Shown: positions 50,954 through 64,000, numbered from the stretch's first letter. The stretch is 64,000 nt of DNA from Candidatus Binataceae bacterium (GCA_963798375.1 CAWCTG010000022.1:272926-336925), one strand, 5' to 3'. Notes: a model not told the origin generated them from the sequence alone. Numbers and translations: made by a program.

Positions 50954-52222
50954 ATGAATCGTCTATATCTTGTGCCGTTATCGTTTCTGCTCGCGACCGG
51001 ATTCAGCGCGTGCTCGGGCGAGGGTATTTCCGAAGCGCCGGTCTCTTACATGAATCCGGAAGGAGTCCGCGTCGAAGCGCTCGCGATGACTTCGCCGCGA
51101 GCCAACGCGGCCGCGATTCGGCTCCGCGACGGACGCGTGCTGATTTGCGGCGGCACGGCGACCGGAGAGGTCGGCGGCGTGCTCGCCAGCGCCGAGCTCT
51201 ACGATCCGGTGGCGCGCAGCTTCACGCCGACCGGCGCTATGACGGTCGCGCGAGCCGGACAGACGATCACGATGCTCCGTGACGGACGCGTGCTGCTCAC
51301 CGGCGGGGTTCAAAATGCCGGCTTTCGCTCGCAGCTCGCCAGTGCGGAGATTTACGATCCGGGCGCCGGCACCTTCAGCGCAACGGGCTCTATGGCGACG
51401 CCGCGCGAAGGGCATACCGCGACGATGCTTCGCGATGGGCGCGTGCTGATCGTCGGCGGCAGCGGCAACGGCGTGAGCACGTTGGGCTCGGCTGAGGTTT
51501 ACGATCCTTCGAGCGGCACTTTCAGCGCCGCGGGCCATTTGAACCAGCCGCGCGTCGCGCATGTCGCCGCGCTGCTTGGCAGCGGCAAAGTATTGATCGC
51601 CGGCGGCGGCCGCGGCGGCATGCCGGGCGGCTATATCTCCTACGACACCGCGGAAATGTACGATCCAGCCACGCGCAGCTTCACCGCGATGCGCGCGCAC
51701 ATGACGAGCGATCGCGTCGGCGCGGCTGCGATCAAATTGAACGACGGGCGCGTGCTGATCGTCGGCGGCAAGAGCGGCAGAGTCGCGACCAGCCGGCATC
51801 CCAATCTTTTTTCGCTGACCCCGCTCAACAGCTCGGAAATTTTCGATCCCGAATCCGGCACCTTCATCAGAACCGGCGACATGAGGGCGCCGCACTACCT
51901 GCCGACTGCAACCATGCTCGACAACGGGAATGTGCTCGTCGTCGGAGGATGGACCATCAAGGGGCCGGTTGTGGTCGGGATGCGCGACGCGGAAATCTAC
52001 CGACCCGAAACGAACCTGTTCTCGCAAGTGGGCCCGACCAACGTCGCGCGGCTCACTAACACCGCGACCCTGCTGAACGACGGCGAGGTTTTGATCGCCG
52101 GCGGCATCGACGCCAATTCGCTGGTAGGTGCGTCGGTCGAGTTCTACTCTCCAACGCAGCATCGGTTCCTGATGCTCCCCGAACCCGGCGAGTCCGCACA
52201 AGCTGCGCCCATGCAGCAATGA
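50954..52222 (+). CDS. Kelch/galactose-oxidase-repeat beta-propeller, probable lipoprotein
   Basis: Lipobox-like LATGFSAC and repeated R.GHTAT.L.DGRVL..GG....SAE.YDP units. Confidence 0.88.
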   Translation: MNRLYLVPLSFLLATGFSACSGEGISEAPVSYMNPEGVRVEALAMTSPRANAAAIRLRDGRVLICGGTATGEVGGVLASAELYDPVARSFTPTGAMTVARAGQTITMLRDGRVLLTGGVQNAGFRSQLASAEIYDPGAGTFSATGSMATPREGHTATMLRDGRVLIVGGSGNGVSTLGSAEVYDPSSGTFSAAGHLNQPRVAHVAALLGSGKVLIAGGGRGGMPGGYISYDTAEMYDPATRSFTAMRAHMTSDRVGAAAIKLNDGRVLIVGGKSGRVATSRHPNLFSLTPLNSSEIFDPESGTFIRTGDMRAPHYLPTATMLDNGNVLVVGGWTIKGPVVVGMRDAEIYRPETNLFSQVGPTNVARLTNTATLLNDGEVLIAGGIDANSLVGASVEFYSPTQHRFLMLPEPGESAQAAPMQQ

Positions 52223-57684: not shown

Positions 57685-58126
57685 TCACGCCGCCTTCAGT
57701 TCCGACGTGCAATGGGGGCATCGCGTGGCGCCGAGCGCGATCGCGCTCAGGCAATACGGACACTCCTTGGTGGTGGGTGGCGCCAGGCTTTTCGCCGACA
57801 AGCTGATTCATCCATTTGACGAGTAGAAAGACCGCGAACGCGATTATCAGGAAGTCGATGATCGTGTTGATGAACAATCCGACGTTCAGCGTCGGCGCGC
57901 CCGCAGCCTTCGCCGCCGCGATGGTCGGGTAATGCGTCGACGAAAGATTGATGAACAGGTTGGAGAAATCGACTGCGCCGAGCGCCAGGCCGATCGGCGG
58001 CATAAGAATGTCGTTGGTGAACGAGGTTACGATTTTCCCGAACGCGGCGCCGACTACGAAGCCGACCGCGAGATCGATTACGCTGCCCTTGATCGCGAAC
58101 TGCTTGAACTCTGAAAGTATCGACAC
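57685..58126 (-). CDS. mscL: Large-conductance mechanosensitive channel with C-terminal CxxC...CxxC tail; apparent frameshift near 57785
   Basis: [28 protein letters not shown] and [10 protein letters not shown]. The shifted frame gives [29 protein letters not shown] ending at 57685. Confidence 0.85.
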
Positions 58127-58232
58127 GATGCGTCCTCCATTAGCCGGTCAGATTGGTGAGGAGCCTCGCTAAGGAAAGCATCGCGGCACGCCGAAGTAAA
58201 CCGGCCGGCAACGCGCGAGCGGTGCGGAGAAA

Positions 58233-58358
58233 CTACAGGGTCTTTACAATAGACGATGACGCGATCTGGGCCATGCCCGCGTTCGCTGCCGCCATTACTG
58301 TTCCAAGCATGATGATGGCGGAAAGGATCGCGGCAAAGATGAAGCCGGCGGTTTTCAT
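58233..58358 (-). CDS. Small hydrophobic peptide (41 aa)
   Basis: AGAGGA RBS then MKTAGFIFAAILSAIIMLGTVMAAANAGMAQIASSSIVKTL*; shorter than any ORF listed in the track. Confidence 0.5.
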   Translation of the reverse strand: MKTAGFIFAAILSAIIMLGTVMAAANAGMAQIASSSIVKTL

Positions 58359-58433
58359 GTGCATTCCTCTAACAAGGAATACGCACGGCGGGACCGTCCG
58401 TTACGCGGAAAAAAGTCCCGTTGCGCTTGGCGA

Positions 58434-59376
58434 TTATGCGGCGGGATCAAGGATATCGGCCCTGCCCCGCGGATCTGCCGCGTCGGCCCTGCCGCCGCTG
58501 CGCCTGGGCGTGCCATGGCGAACGTTGGTGGCGAGGCCGAGCTTCTCGAGCGCCAGGATGAGCACGTAACCGGCGTCGGGCTGGCGCCAGTTCCATCCCA
58601 GACGGGCAGAACCGGGGCGCGCGTGATGGTTGCGATGCCAGTTCTCGCCCTGAAACAGATGCATCAGCGCAAGCCATTTTACGTTGCGGCTGGAATCCTG
58701 GCCCACCGTGATGCCCGGTTCGGTGTGGCAAACGCTGTTGACGAAACATTGCGCGTGCAGTCGCGAAGCACAAGCGAATCGCGCCCAGCCAGAAAAATGC
58801 GGCCGGACTGAAATACAAACCGCCGAGGTATGAGAGCGCGAGGATCGGCGTCTGGAACCATCGCCAGGCCCGATACGAAACTCCGCTGAGATCGGGACAG
58901 TAACGATCGACGGGCATCTCGCCAGCCTGCCAAAGCCATCGTAGATGCGCCCACCAGAAACCGCCCCAAATCGGGCTCGAGATGTCGTCGGGGGTGTCAG
59001 CCTTGGCGTGATGCAGACGATGGCCGGCGGCCCAAGTGGTCGGCGCGCCGGAACCGTTGAACATCGCGAAGAAAATCAGCACTCCGCGCGCCCATGGATT
59101 CAGCGTGAGCGCGCGATGCGTGATCGCGCGATGGTACCCGACCGTGGTGCCCAATCCGCCGATGAATACCAGCGCGATCGCGCCGAGCAACACGCGCCAT
59201 CCGGGAATCGGATAAAGCACCAGTCCAATCGCGGCCGTAATATGAATGAGGCAGACCCACAACAGGATCGAAAGGTCGCGCGCCGACGAGGGCCGCCACC
59301 ATGGCATCTCCCACGGCGCGGTCTTTGTGGTTTTTTCTGTTTTGGTTGTGCTCGTGGTCGTGAAAGCTGCTGCCAT
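58434..59376 (-). pseudogene. Delta-9-type fatty acid (acyl-CoA) desaturase, frameshifted at ~58761
   Basis: His boxes HRAITH and HRLHH lie in one frame, ENWHRNHH in another. Removing one base restores CFALHAQCFVNSVCH. Confidence 0.85.
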
Positions 59377-59672: not shown

Positions 59673-60554
59673 ATGGCATCACAAGTGAAGCAACGAGTCG
59701 TACGCGCGTCGAACCTGAATTTCACGGTGCTCGAGATGGGCGAAGGACCGCTGGTGCTGTGCCTGCACGGCTTCCCCGACACGGCTCATTCGTTTCGCCA
59801 TCAGATGCCCGCGCTGGCGGCGGCGGGATTCCACTGCGTCGCGCCGTTCATGCGCGGCTACTCGCCCACCGAGCCCGCGCCCGACGGCCGCTACGACTCG
59901 CCGGCGCTGTCGGAGGACGCACTCGCGCTGATTGCGGCGCTCGGCTACAAGGACGCGATCGTGTTCGGCCACGATTGGGGCGCAGTCGCGGCATACGGCG
60001 CCGCGGCGGCCTCGCCGGATCGCATAAGCCGGCTCGTCACGGCGGCAGTCCCGTATGGCTCGAAATTTTTCGAAGCGCTGGTCACCAGCTACGCGCAGCA
60101 GCGCCGCTCCTGGTACATGTTCTTTTTCCAGACGAAAATTGCCGAGGCCGCGATGAGTTTCAACGACTTCGCGTTCCTGGAAAAGTGTTGGGCCGACTGG
60201 TCGCCGGGCTGGAAATGGGCGCGCGAGGACATGGAAGCGCTCAAGCGATGCTTTCGCGCCAAGGGCACGCTCGAGGCGGCCATCGGCTACTATCGCGCCA
60301 CGCTCGGGCCGGTGCTCAGCATGCCGGTCGATCTGAAAGTGCTGGCGGCCGCGATGGGAACGCCGATCAACGTGCCGGCGATGATGCTTCATGGGCGCGA
60401 CGACGGATGCATCGGCGCGGAGTTGCTCGACGGGATGGAGAAGCTGTTCCCGAAGGGATTGAAGATCGAGATCGTGCCGGGCGCCGGGCATTTCGTGCAT
60501 CAGGAGCGCCCCGATCACGTCAATGAACTGATTCTCAAGTTCCTGAAATCCTGA
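59673..60554 (+). CDS. Alpha/beta hydrolase (epoxide hydrolase-like)
   Basis: LHGFPD, RGYSP, GHDWGA, HGRDDG and GHFVHQERP. Confidence 0.92.
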   Translation: MASQVKQRVVRASNLNFTVLEMGEGPLVLCLHGFPDTAHSFRHQMPALAAAGFHCVAPFMRGYSPTEPAPDGRYDSPALSEDALALIAALGYKDAIVFGHDWGAVAAYGAAAASPDRISRLVTAAVPYGSKFFEALVTSYAQQRRSWYMFFFQTKIAEAAMSFNDFAFLEKCWADWSPGWKWAREDMEALKRCFRAKGTLEAAIGYYRATLGPVLSMPVDLKVLAAAMGTPINVPAMMLHGRDDGCIGAELLDGMEKLFPKGLKIEIVPGAGHFVHQERPDHVNELILKFLKS

Positions 60555-60889
60555 GCGGAAACTTTTTGCGTCGTCATCCCGACCGAAGCGCAGCGACCCC
60601 GTCTCTTTTTCTTCGCCGCGTGCCGGTGCACCGCCCTGACCCGAGAGCCTGCATGACCGGATGTTGGCGCTGGTGCCACACGCACTGGCGCCCTCCGGGG
60701 CTAGTGGCGCACAGCTCTCTTACCGCTATGAATTGCCTGTTTTGAAAGTTAAAAATAAAATTACAGCTAATTGCATAAAGATACTTGCTTTGTAATTAAA
60801 TAATAGGTAAAAGCAGGTATCTACATCACTTGGGAGAACATGGCATGCGAGGAGCGAATTGCCAGCAGCAGCGTAGTACATCCGATTAC

Positions 60890-63390
60890 ATGTCGACCGA
60901 ACAATCAGTGACCGAGGCCCATTCGCGTCGCGACACGCGTCGGCGACAGCCGATCGCAATCGTGGCGCTCGGGTGGCCACTCCTGTTTCTCTTAGCGGCG
61001 CTTTCCACGACGGCGTTCGTGCAGCCGGCCGCGGCCGCTACCTGCCCTGCTGGTTATCGCGCGCTGACTTTCACCAACAATTGCGGTTACGACGTGTACC
61101 TCGGCGAGGGTCTCAGCCAGCCGCAGGTTGACGGAACGCCTGTTTGTACCCAGGATTCTGACTGCACCAATGGCACCACAAACCCGAATCTGAAATGCGT
61201 TGCCGACACGTCAGATGCCACAACGGGGGCATGCACGATCACCTGCTCAAAGGATTCAGATTGCGGCCCCAATCAGGTTTGTTTTTCAGGAAACGTTCCT
61301 CCTAGCGCAAACGCCTGGTACGACGTCAATAGCACCAACCCCGTGGGGGAGTGTTGGTTTGCGAACCTGGAGCCTACTCCGCTGTCCGCTCCGGCGCCGA
61401 GTTCCAATTGGGACCTTCCGGCCAACGGTGGACAATCCGTAATCTGCGTTCCCGAGGCTCAAGAAGCATCGGGCAAATCTGCCGAGGGGGCTTCGTGCAC
61501 GCAACCTTCGGATTGCGCAAGCGACAATTGCTACGATGCCATCGCCGGCTATGAGTGCATTGCGGGCGATACGAACTGCACTTGCGGATCCTTGTTTACC
61601 TGGGGCGGCAATTTCTGGGGACGCACAGGCTGCTCGCCTACAAGCGGTGGCTTGACCTGCCAGACCGGAGATTGCGGCGGCGCGGGTAACGGATTGTCTG
61701 GACTACTCGATTGCAGCGGCAACACAGCGAACACGCCGCACGGGCCAGCAAACCCCGCATATGCAGGCGAGTTCACACTTGAGGTTCCGCCCAGCGGCAC
61801 AAGTAACGTTGGCGCGCAAGATTATTACGACACCAGCATGGTCAACGGTTTCAACGTGGGCTTTTCGATGGTACCGGTTTCGGGCACGTATTCACCCGCA
61901 TTTTCTGTTTCAAGTCCTAAGCAATGCGGCCCGGCCGGCGAAACAGTTGATCAGTCCGGCACCGTTACAGCCTGCCCTTTTAACCTGCTTAGCAGCTGTC
62001 CTTCCAGTCTGACCTACAACTCTCCATCGGGTACGCAGTCCGTGGTTGGTTGCTGGGCGCCGACCCAGGCTTGCCTGTCGGGCACTACCACCCAGCAGGC
62101 GGCACTTGGATGCACCGGCAACGTCCCGTTCCTCTGCGCGACAACGTTGGACTGTCCCTATGGGCACCAAGCCACGCCGGAGGGAACACCCACGCCGGAG
62201 CGAACGTTGACCTGCAACATTTCACCGAGCCAGGCATTCGGCCAATGCCAATGCATGCAAGATACCGATTGCCCAAAGGGTTTCACCTGCGAAGGATCCC
62301 CCACGGGTACCTGCACGTATGAGGAAGGCCCGCCCGCAACGTGGGCCGATCTCTATGGGTGCCATAATTTCTACGACTTTTCGCCGTACAATGCCGTGGA
62401 CTACCAATCGTGGTTAACAGGTATCGCTGAGGAAACCGGCATAGTGTGCGGGTGCCCTTCCTGTCAACTGCCGGGGAATGTCTAGCTGACAGCATCAACT
62501 GGGAAAAGGTTCCCGCCGGCAGCACTGGCCCGGTTGCCGCTGCGGCGCCGACCACCTCCGCCGGAGATTTCTATCTCGCTTTCCACAATTCGTGCCCCGT
62601 CGCCTACACTTATCCTTACGACGACGAGGCTGCCAGCTTCGGCTGCACCAATTCGGGAGCGTCGGTAGGCCCGTCGTACAACATCACCTTCTGTCCGGCA
62701 GGATCCGCCGCAACGCCGACCGCAACGCCGACTGCATCGGCAACCATGTCGGCAACCCCGACTGCCACGCCAACAGCGACTCTCACCGCGACACCGACGC
62801 CATCCAAGACCGCCACGCCAACCAGGACCGCGAAGCCCACCAGGACGGCGACGCCGACCAGGACCGCGACACCGAAGCCGACCAAGACCGCGACGCCCAC
62901 CAGGACGGCGACGCCCACCAAGACCGCGACACCGAAGCCGACCAAGACGCCAACCGCCACGCCAACCCCGGTTGCAAAGTGCCCGGTGAACATATACTTG
63001 AGCACCAGTCCCACAGGTACCCTCGCGTTCGGGGATGTCGACGATAAACAATCGGCTACTTTGCCTCTTACCGTCAGCAACGACCTCAGCGACACGCTCA
63101 AGTTGACGACGGCTATAAGTAATTCGGGTGGAACGAAACAGGCGGACGATTTTAAAGTCAACAAAGGCAAGAAGACGGCCGGCACTTGCACGTCGAATCC
63201 TAACCTAGGCGGGAGCAGTTCCTGCGCCTATAACATTACCTTTCAGCCTAAAGGTCATGGCGCCGGGGCCGTGCAAGCGCAATTGACGATCACTGGAAAG
63301 TTCAGCTCCAACGGAAAGACTTGCGAGCAAACCGTCTCGGTGACTTTGGCCGGCGATGCAGAGGCGCCAGCGGAGACGGAGCGGCCGTAA
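60890..63390 (+). CDS. Secreted Cys-rich thaumatin-like protein with Pro/Thr linker and C-terminal Ig-like domain; frameshift at ~62463
   Basis: TFTNNC, NFWGRTGC, CQTGDCG, GEFTL, DYYDTSMVNGFN, then (second frame) CPVAYTYPYDD..SFGC and YNITFCP. Adding one G restores CGCPSWSTAGEC. Confidence 0.85.
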
Positions 63391-63396
63391 TGGTAA

Positions 63397-63435
63397 AATC
63401 GCGGCGTGGCGCTAACCGCGCGCCACGCCGCGATT
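63397..63435. terminator. Perfect 16-bp hairpin after the thaumatin-like gene (possible terminator or stabiliser)
   Basis: aatcgcggcgtggcgc-taaccgc-gcgccacgccgcgatt; no clear U-tract. Confidence 0.5.
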
Positions 63436-63628
63436 AAGCAGAGCGGCGTTTGAGCTCGCCGATGCTTAAGTTCCTGAAATCCTGAGCGGAAACTTTTTGC
63501 GTCGTCCTGAGCGCAGCGAAGGATCTCTCGCGCGCAAGCGCGCGCCCGCGCAGGCAGCAGGCCAGATCAACGACCCGATACTGGAATTCCTGGAATCAGC
63601 ATCCTAAGGTCACTGAGAAGAACGTCAC

Positions 63629-64000
63629 TCAGCCATCGAATCCTAGCCTGTCCGCGATCTGGGTATATCGTTCGGTCCAGTCGCGCAGGGTTCCCATCTT
63701 GCTCGCGACTTCGACCTCATGGCGCTGGATATATTCCCAGATGATCAGCCGGTCGAGCAGCATGTAAAGCGAAAAGCGCTCGCGCAAACCGTGTCGCGGC
63801 GCGCGGAGCTGCAGGTAGGTGGCCAGAAACTCGCGCGCCAGCTCCGGATCCTGATCGAAATATTCGGCCGTTGTCCGCGACAGATCGGTCTCGCCGTCGC
63901 CGAAATAGCATCCCATGAAGTCGAAAGCCCCGCTGACCTGCCATCCATCGGGTGTCCGACTCAGTACTACATTACCTTCCTTGTAGTCCTCCATCGTGAA
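63629..64000 (-). CDS. Aminoglycoside phosphotransferase/choline kinase-like protein, C-terminal part (runs off the window)
   Basis: DYKEGN catalytic-loop-like motif followed by GAFDF...FGDGETDL. Confidence 0.65.
   Translation of the reverse strand, partial: FTMEDYKEGNVVLSRTPDGWQVSGAFDFMGCYFGDGETDLSRTTAEYFDQDPELAREFLATYLQLRAPRHGLRERFSLYMLLDRLIIWEYIQRHEVEVASKMGTLRDWTERYTQIADRLGFDG

What the first reader, a model, noticed from the sequence alone, without database searches (positions are those of the whole stretch)
60537..63506. Exact 39-bp direct repeat makes the thaumatin-like gene an excisable cassette
The last codons and stop of the hydrolase (KFLKS*) plus 21 downstream bases are repeated exactly 2.93 kb later. 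Each copy runs straight into a REP-like palindrome (gtcatcccgaccgaagcg; gtcgtcctgagcgcagcgaaggatct). The cassette has its own AT-rich upstream region and a 16-bp hairpin, so it is a self-contained expression unit. Perfect identity suggests recent acquisition.
Basis: partly seen in the sequence, partly recalled or inferred. Interest (0 to 1): 0.7.

Follow-up and report, generated by a model that had tools for sequence, protein, structure and literature searches.

The report
Displaced gene-end scar flanking a swappable gene
The exact 39-bp repeat is real, but it is a leftover copy of the hydrolase gene's tail, pushed downstream when a thaumatin-like gene was recombined into a much-rearranged spot of a Candidatus Binatus genome long ago; it shows no sign of being a recent or self-excising cassette.

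Summary
Observation confirmed. An exact 39-bp direct repeat (60537-60575 / 63468-63506, 2931 bp apart) brackets a thaumatin-like gene between an alpha/beta-hydrolase gene and an APH-family kinase gene in a Candidatus Binatus (Binatota) contig.

Interpretation partly supported.
- **The site is variable.** The hydrolase-to-'p645' interval runs from 152 to 4923 bp across Binatus-related MAGs (hydrolase at least 78% identical) and holds many different cargos.
- **An alternative cargo exists.** Ten same-species assemblies carry a 1092-aa sedolisin-Kelch gene in place of the thaumatin-like gene.
- **The repeat is not a cassette boundary.** Copy 2 is a displaced hydrolase 3' end plus the start of a repeated element. 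A third, older hydrolase-tail remnant lies at 63566-63607.
- **No rearrangement uses the repeat edges.** The cargo swap breaks at 60557 and 63375. A deletion in Ca. Binatus soli matches loss of 60582-63656.
- **The insertion is old.** The sedolisin allele keeps the last 16 nt of the thaumatin gene. Sister strains have 1-2 mismatches between their copies, so the perfect identity here looks like later homogenisation.
- **No mobility genes.** No convincing integrase or transposase gene (one weak sub-threshold hit in L010), no terminal inverted repeats, and no precise empty site were found.

Best mechanism: homology-anchored illegitimate recombination at a core-gene-flanked hotspot. The frameshift in the window's thaumatin-like gene is probably an assembly error.

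The parts
59673..60554 (+). alpha/beta-fold hydrolase gene (293 aa, ends KFLKS*). It is the conserved left anchor of the hotspot.
   Evidence: Pfam Abhydrolase_1 E 8.6e-27. This exact protein is in the public collection, in a cluster that sources name as Candidatus Binatus alpha/beta hydrolase. tblastn coordinates.
60537..60575 (+). Direct-repeat copy 1: the last 5 codons and stop of the hydrolase, plus 21 nt that are the 5' part of a repeated element.
   Evidence: Exact 39-mer. The element consensus (cTTTTTTTGtGTCATCCTGAGCGCAGCGAAGGAt) is seen in several species in both orientations.
60555..60606 (+). Repeated-element variant A (GCGGAAACTTTTTGCGTCGTCATCCCGACCGAAGCGCAGCGACCCC...). Its first 27 nt are shared with the hydrolase flank of L013.
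   Evidence: Gapped alignment to variant B. L013 similarity runs to window 60581. It is not more stably folded than shuffles.
60700..60844 (+). AT-rich upstream region of the cargo gene. It has one sigma-70-like hexamer pair (60733-60761) and a GGGAGAA ribosome-binding site 6 nt before the ATG at 60845.
   Evidence: Composition. The promoter-like match is no more than chance expectation. The sequence was read directly. Only 60799 onward is shared with L013.
60845..63390 (+). Thaumatin-like secreted protein gene, 848 aa when intact. Layout: N-terminal signal/anchor, thaumatin domain with Cys-rich inserts, Pro/Thr-rich linker (about 62700-62985), C-terminal Ig-like Cep192_D4/ASH-type domain. In the window it is split into 60845-62485 and 62446-63390.
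   Evidence: Pfam Thaumatin 60.6 bits and Cep192_D4 on the intact form from L001. An intact 848-aa gene is called in L002. Homologues are 39-58% identical.
62461..62463 (+). Window-specific 1-bp deletion (CCTGGTCA becomes CCTGTCA) that frameshifts the thaumatin-like gene. It is probably an assembly error.
   Evidence: All four other assemblies have the G. The window has two more private 1-bp insertions that break the MscL and desaturase genes.
63375..63390 (+). Last 16 nt of the thaumatin-like gene (TERP*). This is the right breakpoint of the cargo swap. The same 16 nt survive as a non-coding relic in sedolisin-Kelch strains.
   Evidence: Homology between the window and L107/L101/L105 resumes at 63375. 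Homologues L013 and P0029 end ...AETGRP*.
63397..63435 (.). Perfect 16-bp-stem hairpin, likely a terminator. A U-run follows it only on the minus strand. It travels with thaumatin homologues and is kept in the sedolisin allele.
   Evidence: z -5.4 and -4.9. Conserved after the homologues in L013 and L093-L095, and present in all sedolisin-allele loci. It does not meet the T-run rule of the terminator scan.
63458..63485 (+). Remnant 2: a displaced last 25-28 nt of a hydrolase allele (..MLKFLKS*, as in L021).
   Evidence: Best local match is the 3' end of the L021/L018/L013 hydrolase. The apparent extension further upstream is not above shuffles.
63468..63506 (+). Direct-repeat copy 2.
63486..63550 (+). 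Repeated-element variant B, with core GTCGTCCTGAGCGCAGCGAAGGAT at 63501-63524 and a small GC palindrome at 63529-63544. Together with remnant 2 it is colinear with what follows the intact hydrolase in L014 and L015.
63566..63607 (+). Remnant 3: an older displaced hydrolase tail (INDPILEFLESAS*). Together with the kinase stop it is colinear with the L010/L012 allele, where the intact hydrolase (..VLKFLKSAS*) abuts the kinase gene.
   Evidence: blastn 63585-63611 against the L012 hydrolase 3' end, 96%. Alignment (6 of 300 shuffles reach the upstream score). Sequences.
63629..64000 (-). 3' part of the APH-family phosphotransferase (kinase) gene, which runs off the window. It is itself variable among species.
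   Evidence: Pfam APH. The full 357-aa gene is in L001. It is absent from L004-L007, L014 and others.

Best explanation
The repeat is a recombination scar, not a mobile-element end.

**Setting.** The contig is from Candidatus Binatus. The interval between the conserved hydrolase gene and a conserved 645-aa gene ('p645', seen in related loci just beyond the window's end) is a hotspot where accessory genes are gained, lost and replaced.

**Origin of the repeat (inferred).** A DNA segment carried an allelic hydrolase 3' end, its adjacent repeated element (variant A) and a thaumatin-like gene with its hairpin. It was recombined in with a homologous crossover on the hydrolase side and an illegitimate join on the far side. 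That join fell about 25-28 nt before the stop codon of the resident hydrolase. The resident tail plus its own repeated element (variant B) was therefore pushed 2.9 kb downstream as copy 2. An earlier event of the same kind had already displaced a still older tail, remnant 3, which sits next to the kinase gene.

**Origin of the perfect identity (inferred).** The two copies started as related alleles sharing about 32 identical bases. In the window lineage they became identical over 39 bases through short-tract gene conversion or inter-strain recombination.

**Later history.** The gene has been inherited vertically within the species. In one sublineage most of it was replaced by a sedolisin-Kelch gene.

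**What is shown:** the anatomy, the three hydrolase tails and their colinearity with intact alleles elsewhere, the alternative cargo and its breakpoints, the age, and the lack of mobility genes.

**What is inferred:** the homology-facilitated illegitimate recombination mechanism (or the equivalent single crossover of a circularised fragment), and the conversion step.
For: **Three hydrolase tails in series, same orientation.** They are the intact tail (60537), remnant 2 (63458-63485) and remnant 3 (63566-63607). Each remnant is colinear with what follows an intact hydrolase in another genome:
- Remnant 2 plus variant B matches L014/L015.
- Remnant 3 plus the kinase stop matches L010/L012.

**The same kind of scar recurs elsewhere.** A 45-49-nt hydrolase tail lies downstream of a MNT/HepT toxin-antitoxin cargo in L042 and L017.

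**The site is a hotspot.** The interval is 152-4923 bp across the roughly 35 MAGs (hydrolase at least 78% identical) in which both flanking genes were found. Cargos include MNT/HepT, AIPR, an alpha-amylase, TetR, cupin plus WYL regulator, a methyltransferase, APH, a thaumatin-like gene and a sedolisin-Kelch gene.

**No mobility machinery.** No integrase or transposase family passed threshold in about 44 hotspot and downstream proteins. There are no inverted repeats at the cassette ends.

**Other rearrangements use other breakpoints.**
- The sedolisin swap breaks at 60557 and 63375.
- The L013 deletion junction GTCGTCATCCCG|CGACCTGGG has CCG microhomology.

**The insertion is old.**
- A thaumatin relic survives in the sedolisin allele.
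- Sedolisin strains form one subclade nested among thaumatin strains on the hydrolase tree.

**The copies are not identical in sister strains.**
- L091/L100: GGAAAC in copy 1, GGATAC in copy 2.
- L092: GCGTCGTC in copy 1, GTGTCATC in copy 2.
- Outgroup orthologues of each copy (L013; L014/L015) carry the differing states.

**Precedent.** The same model has been proposed for serial displacement of 3' gene ends at T6SS effector, Rhs and CDI loci (PMC5361080).
Against: - The donor arrangement is unknown, so the illegitimate junction (63436-63458) cannot be checked for microhomology.
- No mosaic signal was detectable inside the hydrolase gene.
- All displaced tails are short (25-49 nt). This could hint at a preferred site, although long repeats would be unstable and junctions beyond the stop codon leave no remnant.
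- The gene-conversion inference rests on few sites, on assemblies of uneven quality (L092 has many indels), and on a population that recombines. The hydrolase tree and the repeat states are not fully congruent.
- Competence, conjugation and transduction in Binatus are all unknown.
Confidence: 0.55

Rival explanations
1. Site-specific cassette. The hydrolase tail and repeated element act as an attachment site. Cargo-only cassettes are inserted, stacked and excised there by a recombinase encoded elsewhere in the genome, like cis-mobilisable elements, tycheposon satellites or integron cassettes.
For: - Nested tails look like accretion at one site.
- Displaced tails recur in other species with a different cargo.
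- All remnants fall within the last 50 nt of the gene.
- Each cargo is a compact gene unit.
- Alternative cargo occupies the same slot in one species.
Against: - No integrase or transposase was found at the hotspot in any locus. The only hint is a sub-threshold rve_3/DDE_Tnp_IS1 hit in L010.
- Remnant lengths differ: 25-28, about 42, and 45-49 nt.
- The sedolisin swap and the L013 deletion do not use the repeat edges.
- Thaumatin homologues at other loci have no flanking repeats.
- No att-like copy was found in viral contigs.
- No single-copy empty site was found in about 16 same-species assemblies.
Confidence: 0.12
2. Local tandem duplication of the hydrolase tail and repeated element, by slippage or unequal crossing-over. 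The thaumatin-like gene would have landed between the two copies later, and the copies would then have diverged outside the 39-bp core.
For: The two copies share about 75-100 bp of gapped similarity beyond the exact core.
Against: - The two flanks match two different natural alleles: variant A as in L013, variant B as in L014/L015. Remnant 2 carries the ATG-CTT allele seen in L021, not the resident ATT-CTC.
- A run of 39 perfect bases inside a region about 70% identical is not uniform divergence.
- This model does not explain remnant 3 or the L042/L017 scars.
Confidence: 0.08
3. Target-site duplication made by a transposon or insertion sequence that carried the thaumatin-like gene.
For: Direct repeats flank an insert.
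Against: - At 39 bp the repeat is far longer than the target duplications known to me (established knowledge).
- There are no terminal inverted repeats and no transposase.
- Similarity continues beyond the repeat with indels.
- The copies differ in sister strains.
Confidence: 0.02
4. Assembly artefact: a collapsed or chimeric join at a repeat.
For: The window contig has private 1-bp indels that break three genes.
Against: The same structure, with both copies, appears in five other assemblies built with different assemblers and from different samples.
Confidence: 0.01

Closest known systems
Orphan 3'-end arrays at Rhs, CDI (cdiA-CT) and T6SS effector-immunity loci, explained by homology-facilitated illegitimate recombination (Kirchberger et al. 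2017, PMC5361080; the de Vries & Wackernagel 2002 and Prudhomme et al. 2002 papers are cited there)
   Same: - A conserved gene acts as the homologous anchor.
- Incoming DNA brings a new 3' end plus cargo.
- The old 3' end is pushed downstream and kept as a same-orientation remnant.
- Repeated events give a series of remnants.
- No recombinase is involved.
   Different: - The anchor here is an ordinary alpha/beta-hydrolase, not a polymorphic toxin.
- The displaced pieces are only 25-49 nt and carry no function.
- The cargo is unrelated to the anchor gene.
- The mechanism is inferred, not shown.
Core-gene-flanked integration hotspots or genomic islets of bacterial pangenomes
   Same: - Two conserved flanking genes, with an interval of highly variable length and content.
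- Many cargos, including defence-type genes (MNT/HepT, AIPR).
- No mobility genes in most alleles.
   Different: Here the scars allow an order of events to be reconstructed. The organism is an uncultured phylum in which such hotspots have not, to my knowledge, been described.
Accretion of integrase-less elements at 3' gene ends (CIMEs at the Streptococcus thermophilus fda locus; tycheposon remnants in Prochlorococcus), recalled from my own knowledge
   Same: Partial copies of a gene's 3' end flank cargo-only segments, and arrays of such copies occur.
   Different: - Those systems have a known integrase and fixed att cores used by every element.
- Here no integrase was found, remnant lengths vary, and other rearrangements ignore the repeat.
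REP/BIME repeated extragenic palindromes
   Same: A short repeated intergenic element directly follows stop codons, occurs in both orientations and in several species, and sits at rearrangement-prone sites.
   Different: - It does not fold better than shuffled sequence.
- Copy number is low (one good copy in 64 kb).
- No RAYT transposase is known for it.
- There was no Rfam match and no literature match to the motif.

Membership tests
Transposon / insertion sequence with target-site duplication | Terminal inverted repeats at the ends of the insert | tested here: not met
   No inverted repeat pairs 60576-60650 with 63400-63467.
Transposon / insertion sequence with target-site duplication | Transposase gene in the insert | tested here: not met
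   The only long ORFs are the two halves of the thaumatin-like gene. Pfam finds Thaumatin and Cep192_D4 only.
Transposon / insertion sequence with target-site duplication | Short duplication created de novo, identical at formation, with no similarity beyond it | tested here: not met
   The repeat is 39 bp and similarity continues with indels to about 100 bp. The copies match different natural alleles.
Integrative element with attL/attR (including integrase-less CIME-type) | Identical core sequence at both ends | tested here: met
   39-bp exact repeat. Sister strains have only 37-38 of 39.
Integrative element with attL/attR (including integrase-less CIME-type) | Integrase or recombinase in the element, or in sibling elements at the same site | tested here: not met
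   None passed threshold among about 44 hotspot and downstream proteins from about 25 loci. The rest of the genome was not searched.
Integrative element with attL/attR (including integrase-less CIME-type) | Empty attB with a single core copy in close relatives | tested here: not met
   About 16 same-species assemblies carry either the thaumatin-like or the sedolisin-Kelch gene. Thaumatin-less sister species (L010, L012, L014) have different junctions. Sampling is limited.
Integrative element with attL/attR (including integrase-less CIME-type) | Different cargos share the same boundaries | tested here: not met
   The sedolisin-Kelch cargo is bounded at 60557 (inside copy 1) and 63375 (inside the thaumatin gene).
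Integron gene cassette | attC recombination site at the cassette end and an IntI integrase with attI nearby | not tested
   No attC model was run.
REP / BIME elements | Imperfect palindrome able to form a stable stem-loop | tested here: not met
   Variants A and B and the L004 copy fold no better than shuffles (z +0.5 to +1.1).
REP / BIME elements | Many intergenic copies per genome | tested here: inconclusive
   One good copy in the 64-kb window. There are 17 matches in 1.29 Mb of related loci, mostly at this same hotspot. Whole genomes were not scanned.
Homology-anchored displacement scars (Rhs/CDI/T6SS-orphan type) | Same-orientation partial 3' ends of the anchor gene downstream of the intact gene | tested here: met
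   Remnants at 63458-63485 and 63566-63607. Analogous remnants occur in L042 and L017.
Homology-anchored displacement scars (Rhs/CDI/T6SS-orphan type) | Each remnant is contiguous with the sequence that follows an intact gene in other genomes | tested here: met
   Remnant 2 plus variant B matches L014/L015. Remnant 3 plus the kinase stop matches L010/L012.
Homology-anchored displacement scars (Rhs/CDI/T6SS-orphan type) | Illegitimate (microhomology) junction at the far end, shown by comparison with the donor | not testable with these tools
   No donor sequence was found. The 22 nt between the hairpin and remnant 2 occur only in this species.
Thaumatin family (PF00314) | Profile match above the curated threshold | tested here: met
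   60.6 bits against 27.4 on the intact protein. The L013 homologue scores 79.8 bits. Homologues carry precomputed PF00314.

The most novel reading that the evidence does not exclude
The hydrolase tail plus the T-rich start of the repeated element is a genuine attachment site. A recombinase encoded elsewhere in Binatus genomes would use it to insert, stack and exchange promoter-to-terminator single-gene cassettes (thaumatin-like, sedolisin-Kelch, MNT/HepT and others). That would make it an integron-like or tycheposon-like cassette system in an uncultured phylum, and the 39-bp identity would be maintained because it is functional.
Probability: 0.1. Interest if true: 0.7.

Novelty: new member of a known kind. 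Interest (0 to 1): 0.35.

Why it matters
It gives a well-resolved example, in an uncultured soil and peat phylum (Binatota), of how single accessory genes are slotted in and replaced between two core genes without any mobile-element machinery. The successive scars allow the order of events to be read.

It is also a caution. A perfect direct repeat around a gene need not mean recent or site-specific mobility. Here it is a displaced gene tail that seems to have been homogenised later.

The cargos themselves may be worth testing as tools for interacting with fungi or other neighbours. One is a large secreted thaumatin-like protein with a hypervariable core. The other is a sedolisin-Kelch protein that replaces it in sister strains.

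Tried and rejected
- **Metagenome scan** with the 21 non-coding bases of the repeat. It gave one hit (L090), an unrelated AT-rich contig, consistent with chance.
- **Viral-contig scan** for an att-like copy of the hydrolase tail plus element start. No hits.
- **Rfam search** on 60400-63700. Only a sub-threshold snoRNA match on the hairpin.
- **Literature search** for the repeated-element motif. Nothing found.
- **Mosaic or imported segment inside the hydrolase gene**, tested by sliding identity against ten relatives. No signal.
- **Extension of remnant 2 upstream of 63458.** It looked plausible by eye (GAGCT..GATGCTT) but is not above shuffles: 192 of 300 shuffles reach the score.
- **Flanking direct repeats around thaumatin homologues at other loci** (L093, L096, L097, L013). 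None found.
- **Exact look-up of the window's truncated thaumatin product.** It is not on record as a called gene.
- **The last contig look-up (L111).** It showed yet another sequence abutting the kinase stop, but the contig does not reach the hydrolase.
- **Real pseudogene in the window.** Rejected as the default reading, because the window has three private 1-bp indels breaking three genes within 5 kb.


Full report
**1.
The 39-mer AAGTTCCTGAAATCCTGAGCGGAAACTTTTTGCGTCGTC occurs at 60537-60575 and 63468-63506 and nowhere else in the window, even at 3 mismatches. None was found in 100 shuffles. Copy 1 is the last five codons and stop of a 293-aa alpha/beta-hydrolase (59673-60554; Pfam Abhydrolase_1) plus 21 bases.

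Between the copies lie:
- an AT-rich stretch;
- a thaumatin-like gene (60845-63390; PF00314 at 60.6 bits on the intact form);
- a perfect 16-bp hairpin (63397-63435; z = -5.4).

Downstream, on the minus strand, is the end of an APH-family kinase gene. Source names for identical and near-identical proteins place the contig in Candidatus Binatus, phylum Binatota. The same structure is present in five other assemblies, so it is not a misassembly.

**2. What the repeat is made of.**
Across related loci the motif cTTTTTTTGtGTCATCCTGAGCGCAGCGAAGGAt recurs in both orientations, often right after a stop codon. The 21 non-coding bases of the 39-mer are the 5' part of this element. Each copy is therefore 'hydrolase tail plus start of the repeated element'.

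After the exact block the two copies continue as diverged variants. Variant A is GTCGTCATCCCGACCGAAGCGCAGCGACCCC. Variant B is GTCGTCCTGAGCGCAGCGAAGGATCTC followed by a small GC palindrome. A gapped alignment gives 82 of 115 identical columns. Neither variant folds better than shuffled sequence, so 'REP-like palindrome' is only loosely apt. Rfam and the literature gave nothing for the motif.

**3. There is a third hydrolase tail.**
At 63566-63607 the window reads ATCAACGACCCGATACTGGAATTCCTGGAATCAGCATCCTAA (INDPILEFLESAS*), followed 21 nt later by the kinase stop. In L010 and L012 (hydrolase 94% identical) the intact hydrolase ends ..VNELVLKFLKSAS* and abuts the kinase gene in exactly this way.

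Likewise, copy 2 with variant B is colinear with what follows the intact hydrolase in L014 and L015, which have no kinase and no thaumatin gene. The part of copy 2 just upstream of the exact block (GATGCTT) matches a different hydrolase allele (ATG-CTT, as in L021) from the resident ATT-CTC. Solid homology of remnant 2 starts 25-28 nt before its stop. A longer extension is not significant.

The locus therefore carries one intact tail and two successively displaced ones. Each was once the real end of the gene.

**4. The site is a hotspot.**
A hydrolase-based scan of species-representative genomes returned 80 loci. In the roughly 35 MAGs (hydrolase at least 78% identical) where both flanking genes were found, the distance from the hydrolase stop to the conserved 645-aa gene ranges from 152 to 4923 bp.

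Cargos include:
- a MNT/HepT toxin-antitoxin pair;
- an AIPR abortive-infection-type protein;
- an alpha-amylase-family protein;
- TetR, and a cupin plus WYL regulator;
- a SAM methyltransferase and a 222-aa secreted protein;
- the kinase, and thaumatin-like genes.

About 44 proteins from these intervals and their continuations were scanned. No integrase or transposase family passed threshold. One sub-threshold rve_3/IS1 hit occurs in L010.

Displaced hydrolase tails also occur in L042 and L017. They are 45-49 nt (..PDHVNEMMLKFLKS*), about 80% identical to the resident tail, and lie downstream of the toxin-antitoxin cargo.

**5. Alternative cargo in the same species.**
The kinase protein of thaumatin strain L091 is found unchanged on many other contigs (19 read, 8 shown). 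In L099, L101 and L103-L106, and with a 95%-identical kinase in L107-L110, the slot between hydrolase and kinase holds a 1092-aa Pro-kumamolisin (sedolisin) plus Kelch protein instead.

Homology between the window and these loci (97.8% on the left flank) ends at 60557, three bases after the hydrolase stop and inside copy 1. It resumes at 63375, sixteen bases before the thaumatin stop. The hairpin, the 22-nt spacer, copy 2, variant B and remnant 3 are all retained.

The thaumatin homologues in L013 and P0029 end ..AETGRP*. The retained GACGGAGCGGCCGTAA (TERP*) is therefore a relic of a thaumatin gene, and the sedolisin allele descends from a thaumatin allele. On a hydrolase tree the sedolisin strains form one subclade nested among thaumatin strains, with L013 as sister.

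**6. A deletion allele in the sister species.**
In L013 (Ca. Binatus soli UBA7539) the hydrolase is followed by TCGGATACTTTTTGCGTCGTCATCCCG and then directly by the interior of the kinase gene. This equals the window with 60582-63656 removed at a CCG microhomology. The kinase loses its last seven codons.

L013 nevertheless has a thaumatin-like gene, on the other side of the kinase. Its 5' end (84% nt) and its 3' part plus hairpin (81% nt) match the window gene, but its core is only about 48% identical in protein.

The hairpin also follows the 56%-identical homologue in an unrelated neighbourhood (L093-L095). Those other loci show no flanking repeats. The gene with its hairpin is thus a recurring unit. 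The repeat is a property of this site, not of the unit.

**7. Age and the perfect identity.**
Thaumatin-allele assemblies are 96-99.7% identical to the window. The state of the two copies differs between strains:

| Assembly | Copy 1 | Copy 2 |
|---|---|---|
| L091 / L100 | GGAAAC | GGATAC |
| L092 | GGATAC...GCGTCGTC | GGATAC...GTGTCATC |
| window / L001 | as the 39-mer (GGAAAC...GCGTCGTC) | identical to copy 1 |

Only the window and L001 have 39 of 39. The orthologue of copy 1 in L013 and the orthologues of copy 2 in L014/L015 carry the differing, presumably ancestral, states.

The simplest reading is that the copies began with about 32 identical bases. They were then homogenised in steps, by short gene conversion or by recombination between strains. 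This is an inference from few sites.

**8. Mechanism.**
The pattern has four features:
- a conserved anchor gene;
- an incoming new tail plus cargo;
- old tails displaced in series;
- no recombinase, and variable junctions.

It matches homology-facilitated illegitimate recombination, as proposed for orphan 3' ends at T6SS, Rhs and CDI loci (PMC5361080). A single crossover of a circularised fragment carrying about 75 bp of tail-plus-element homology would give the same product. It also needs one illegitimate join, so I treat it as a variant.

The short length of all remnants has a simple explanation. Long duplications are unstable, and junctions beyond the stop leave no remnant. A preferred site cannot be excluded, though, and that keeps the site-specific rival alive at about 0.1.

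Crossing-over between the 39-bp copies could in principle delete the cassette as a 2.93-kb circle. No product of that event was seen.

**9. The frameshift.**
The window lacks one G at 62462 (CCTGGTCA in all four other assemblies). This splits the gene into 60845-62485 and 62446-63390. The window also has private 1-bp insertions at 57781 and 58761 that break the MscL and desaturase genes. L002 has an intact 848-aa gene. An assembly error is the likely cause.

**10. Verdict.**
The finding is real and its history is informative, but it belongs to a known kind of structure. It is a core-gene-flanked recombination hotspot with displaced gene-end scars. It is not a newly acquired or demonstrably excisable cassette.

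Noticed in passing
window 57781, 58761, 62462: Three 1-bp indels are private to the window relative to L001 and L091. They frameshift the MscL C-terminus, the fatty-acid desaturase and the thaumatin-like gene. This suggests consensus indel errors in this assembly.
   Followed up: partly
window ~58130-58440 (MscL | 41-aa ORF | desaturase); L004:3636-6452: There is a second variable site 2 kb upstream. L004-L007 carry a 938-940-aa gene between MscL and the desaturase that the window and L001 lack. It is about 27% identical to the sedolisin-Kelch cargo.
   Followed up: no
window 61540-62650; L092; L013:9367-11161: The core of the thaumatin-like gene is hypervariable. Strain L092 diverges heavily only in this stretch. 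L013 shares 81-84% nt at both gene ends but only about 48% protein identity overall. This suggests diversifying selection or segment swapping.
   Followed up: partly
window 62707-62982: The Pro/Thr-rich linker is encoded by imperfect repeats spaced mostly 18 nt apart, with others at 12, 24 and 48 nt (TPT/KPT units). L092 has an in-frame-sized length difference here.
   Followed up: no
L013:7880-7930: The Ca. Binatus soli junction GTCGTCATCCCG|CGACCTGGG corresponds to deletion of window 60582-63656 at a CCG microhomology. It truncates the kinase by 7 codons (new end ..YTQVAG*).
   Followed up: yes
L111 (reverse complement) 1-1912: In another metagenome contig a quite different sequence abuts the kinase stop. 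It includes a small Thr/Pro-rich secreted ORF and a sigma-70 region 1.2-like fragment. Homology to the window starts only at 63624.
   Followed up: partly
L014:8040-8170; L107 (reverse complement) 2207-2290; L001:8110-8150: A second short repeated motif, CTTAATACTGG followed by a GC-rich palindrome, recurs near the end of the 645-aa gene. It also occurs, inverted and in tandem, at the left edge of the sedolisin-Kelch cargo.
   Followed up: no
window ~51107-52168: A Kelch-repeat coding region elsewhere in the window is about 30% identical to the Kelch part of the sedolisin-Kelch cargo (tblastn).
   Followed up: no
L010:9639-12373: In L010 the space between the kinase and the 645-aa gene holds an AIPR-family protein and a 293-aa ORF with sub-threshold HTH_29/rve_3/DDE_Tnp_IS1 hits. 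This is the only transposase-like hint at the hotspot.
   Followed up: partly
L091/L102 versus L001, kinase gene: The kinase protein of L091 is only 94.4% identical to that of L001, although the adjacent thaumatin region is about 99% identical. This is a sign of mosaic recombination between strains.
   Followed up: no
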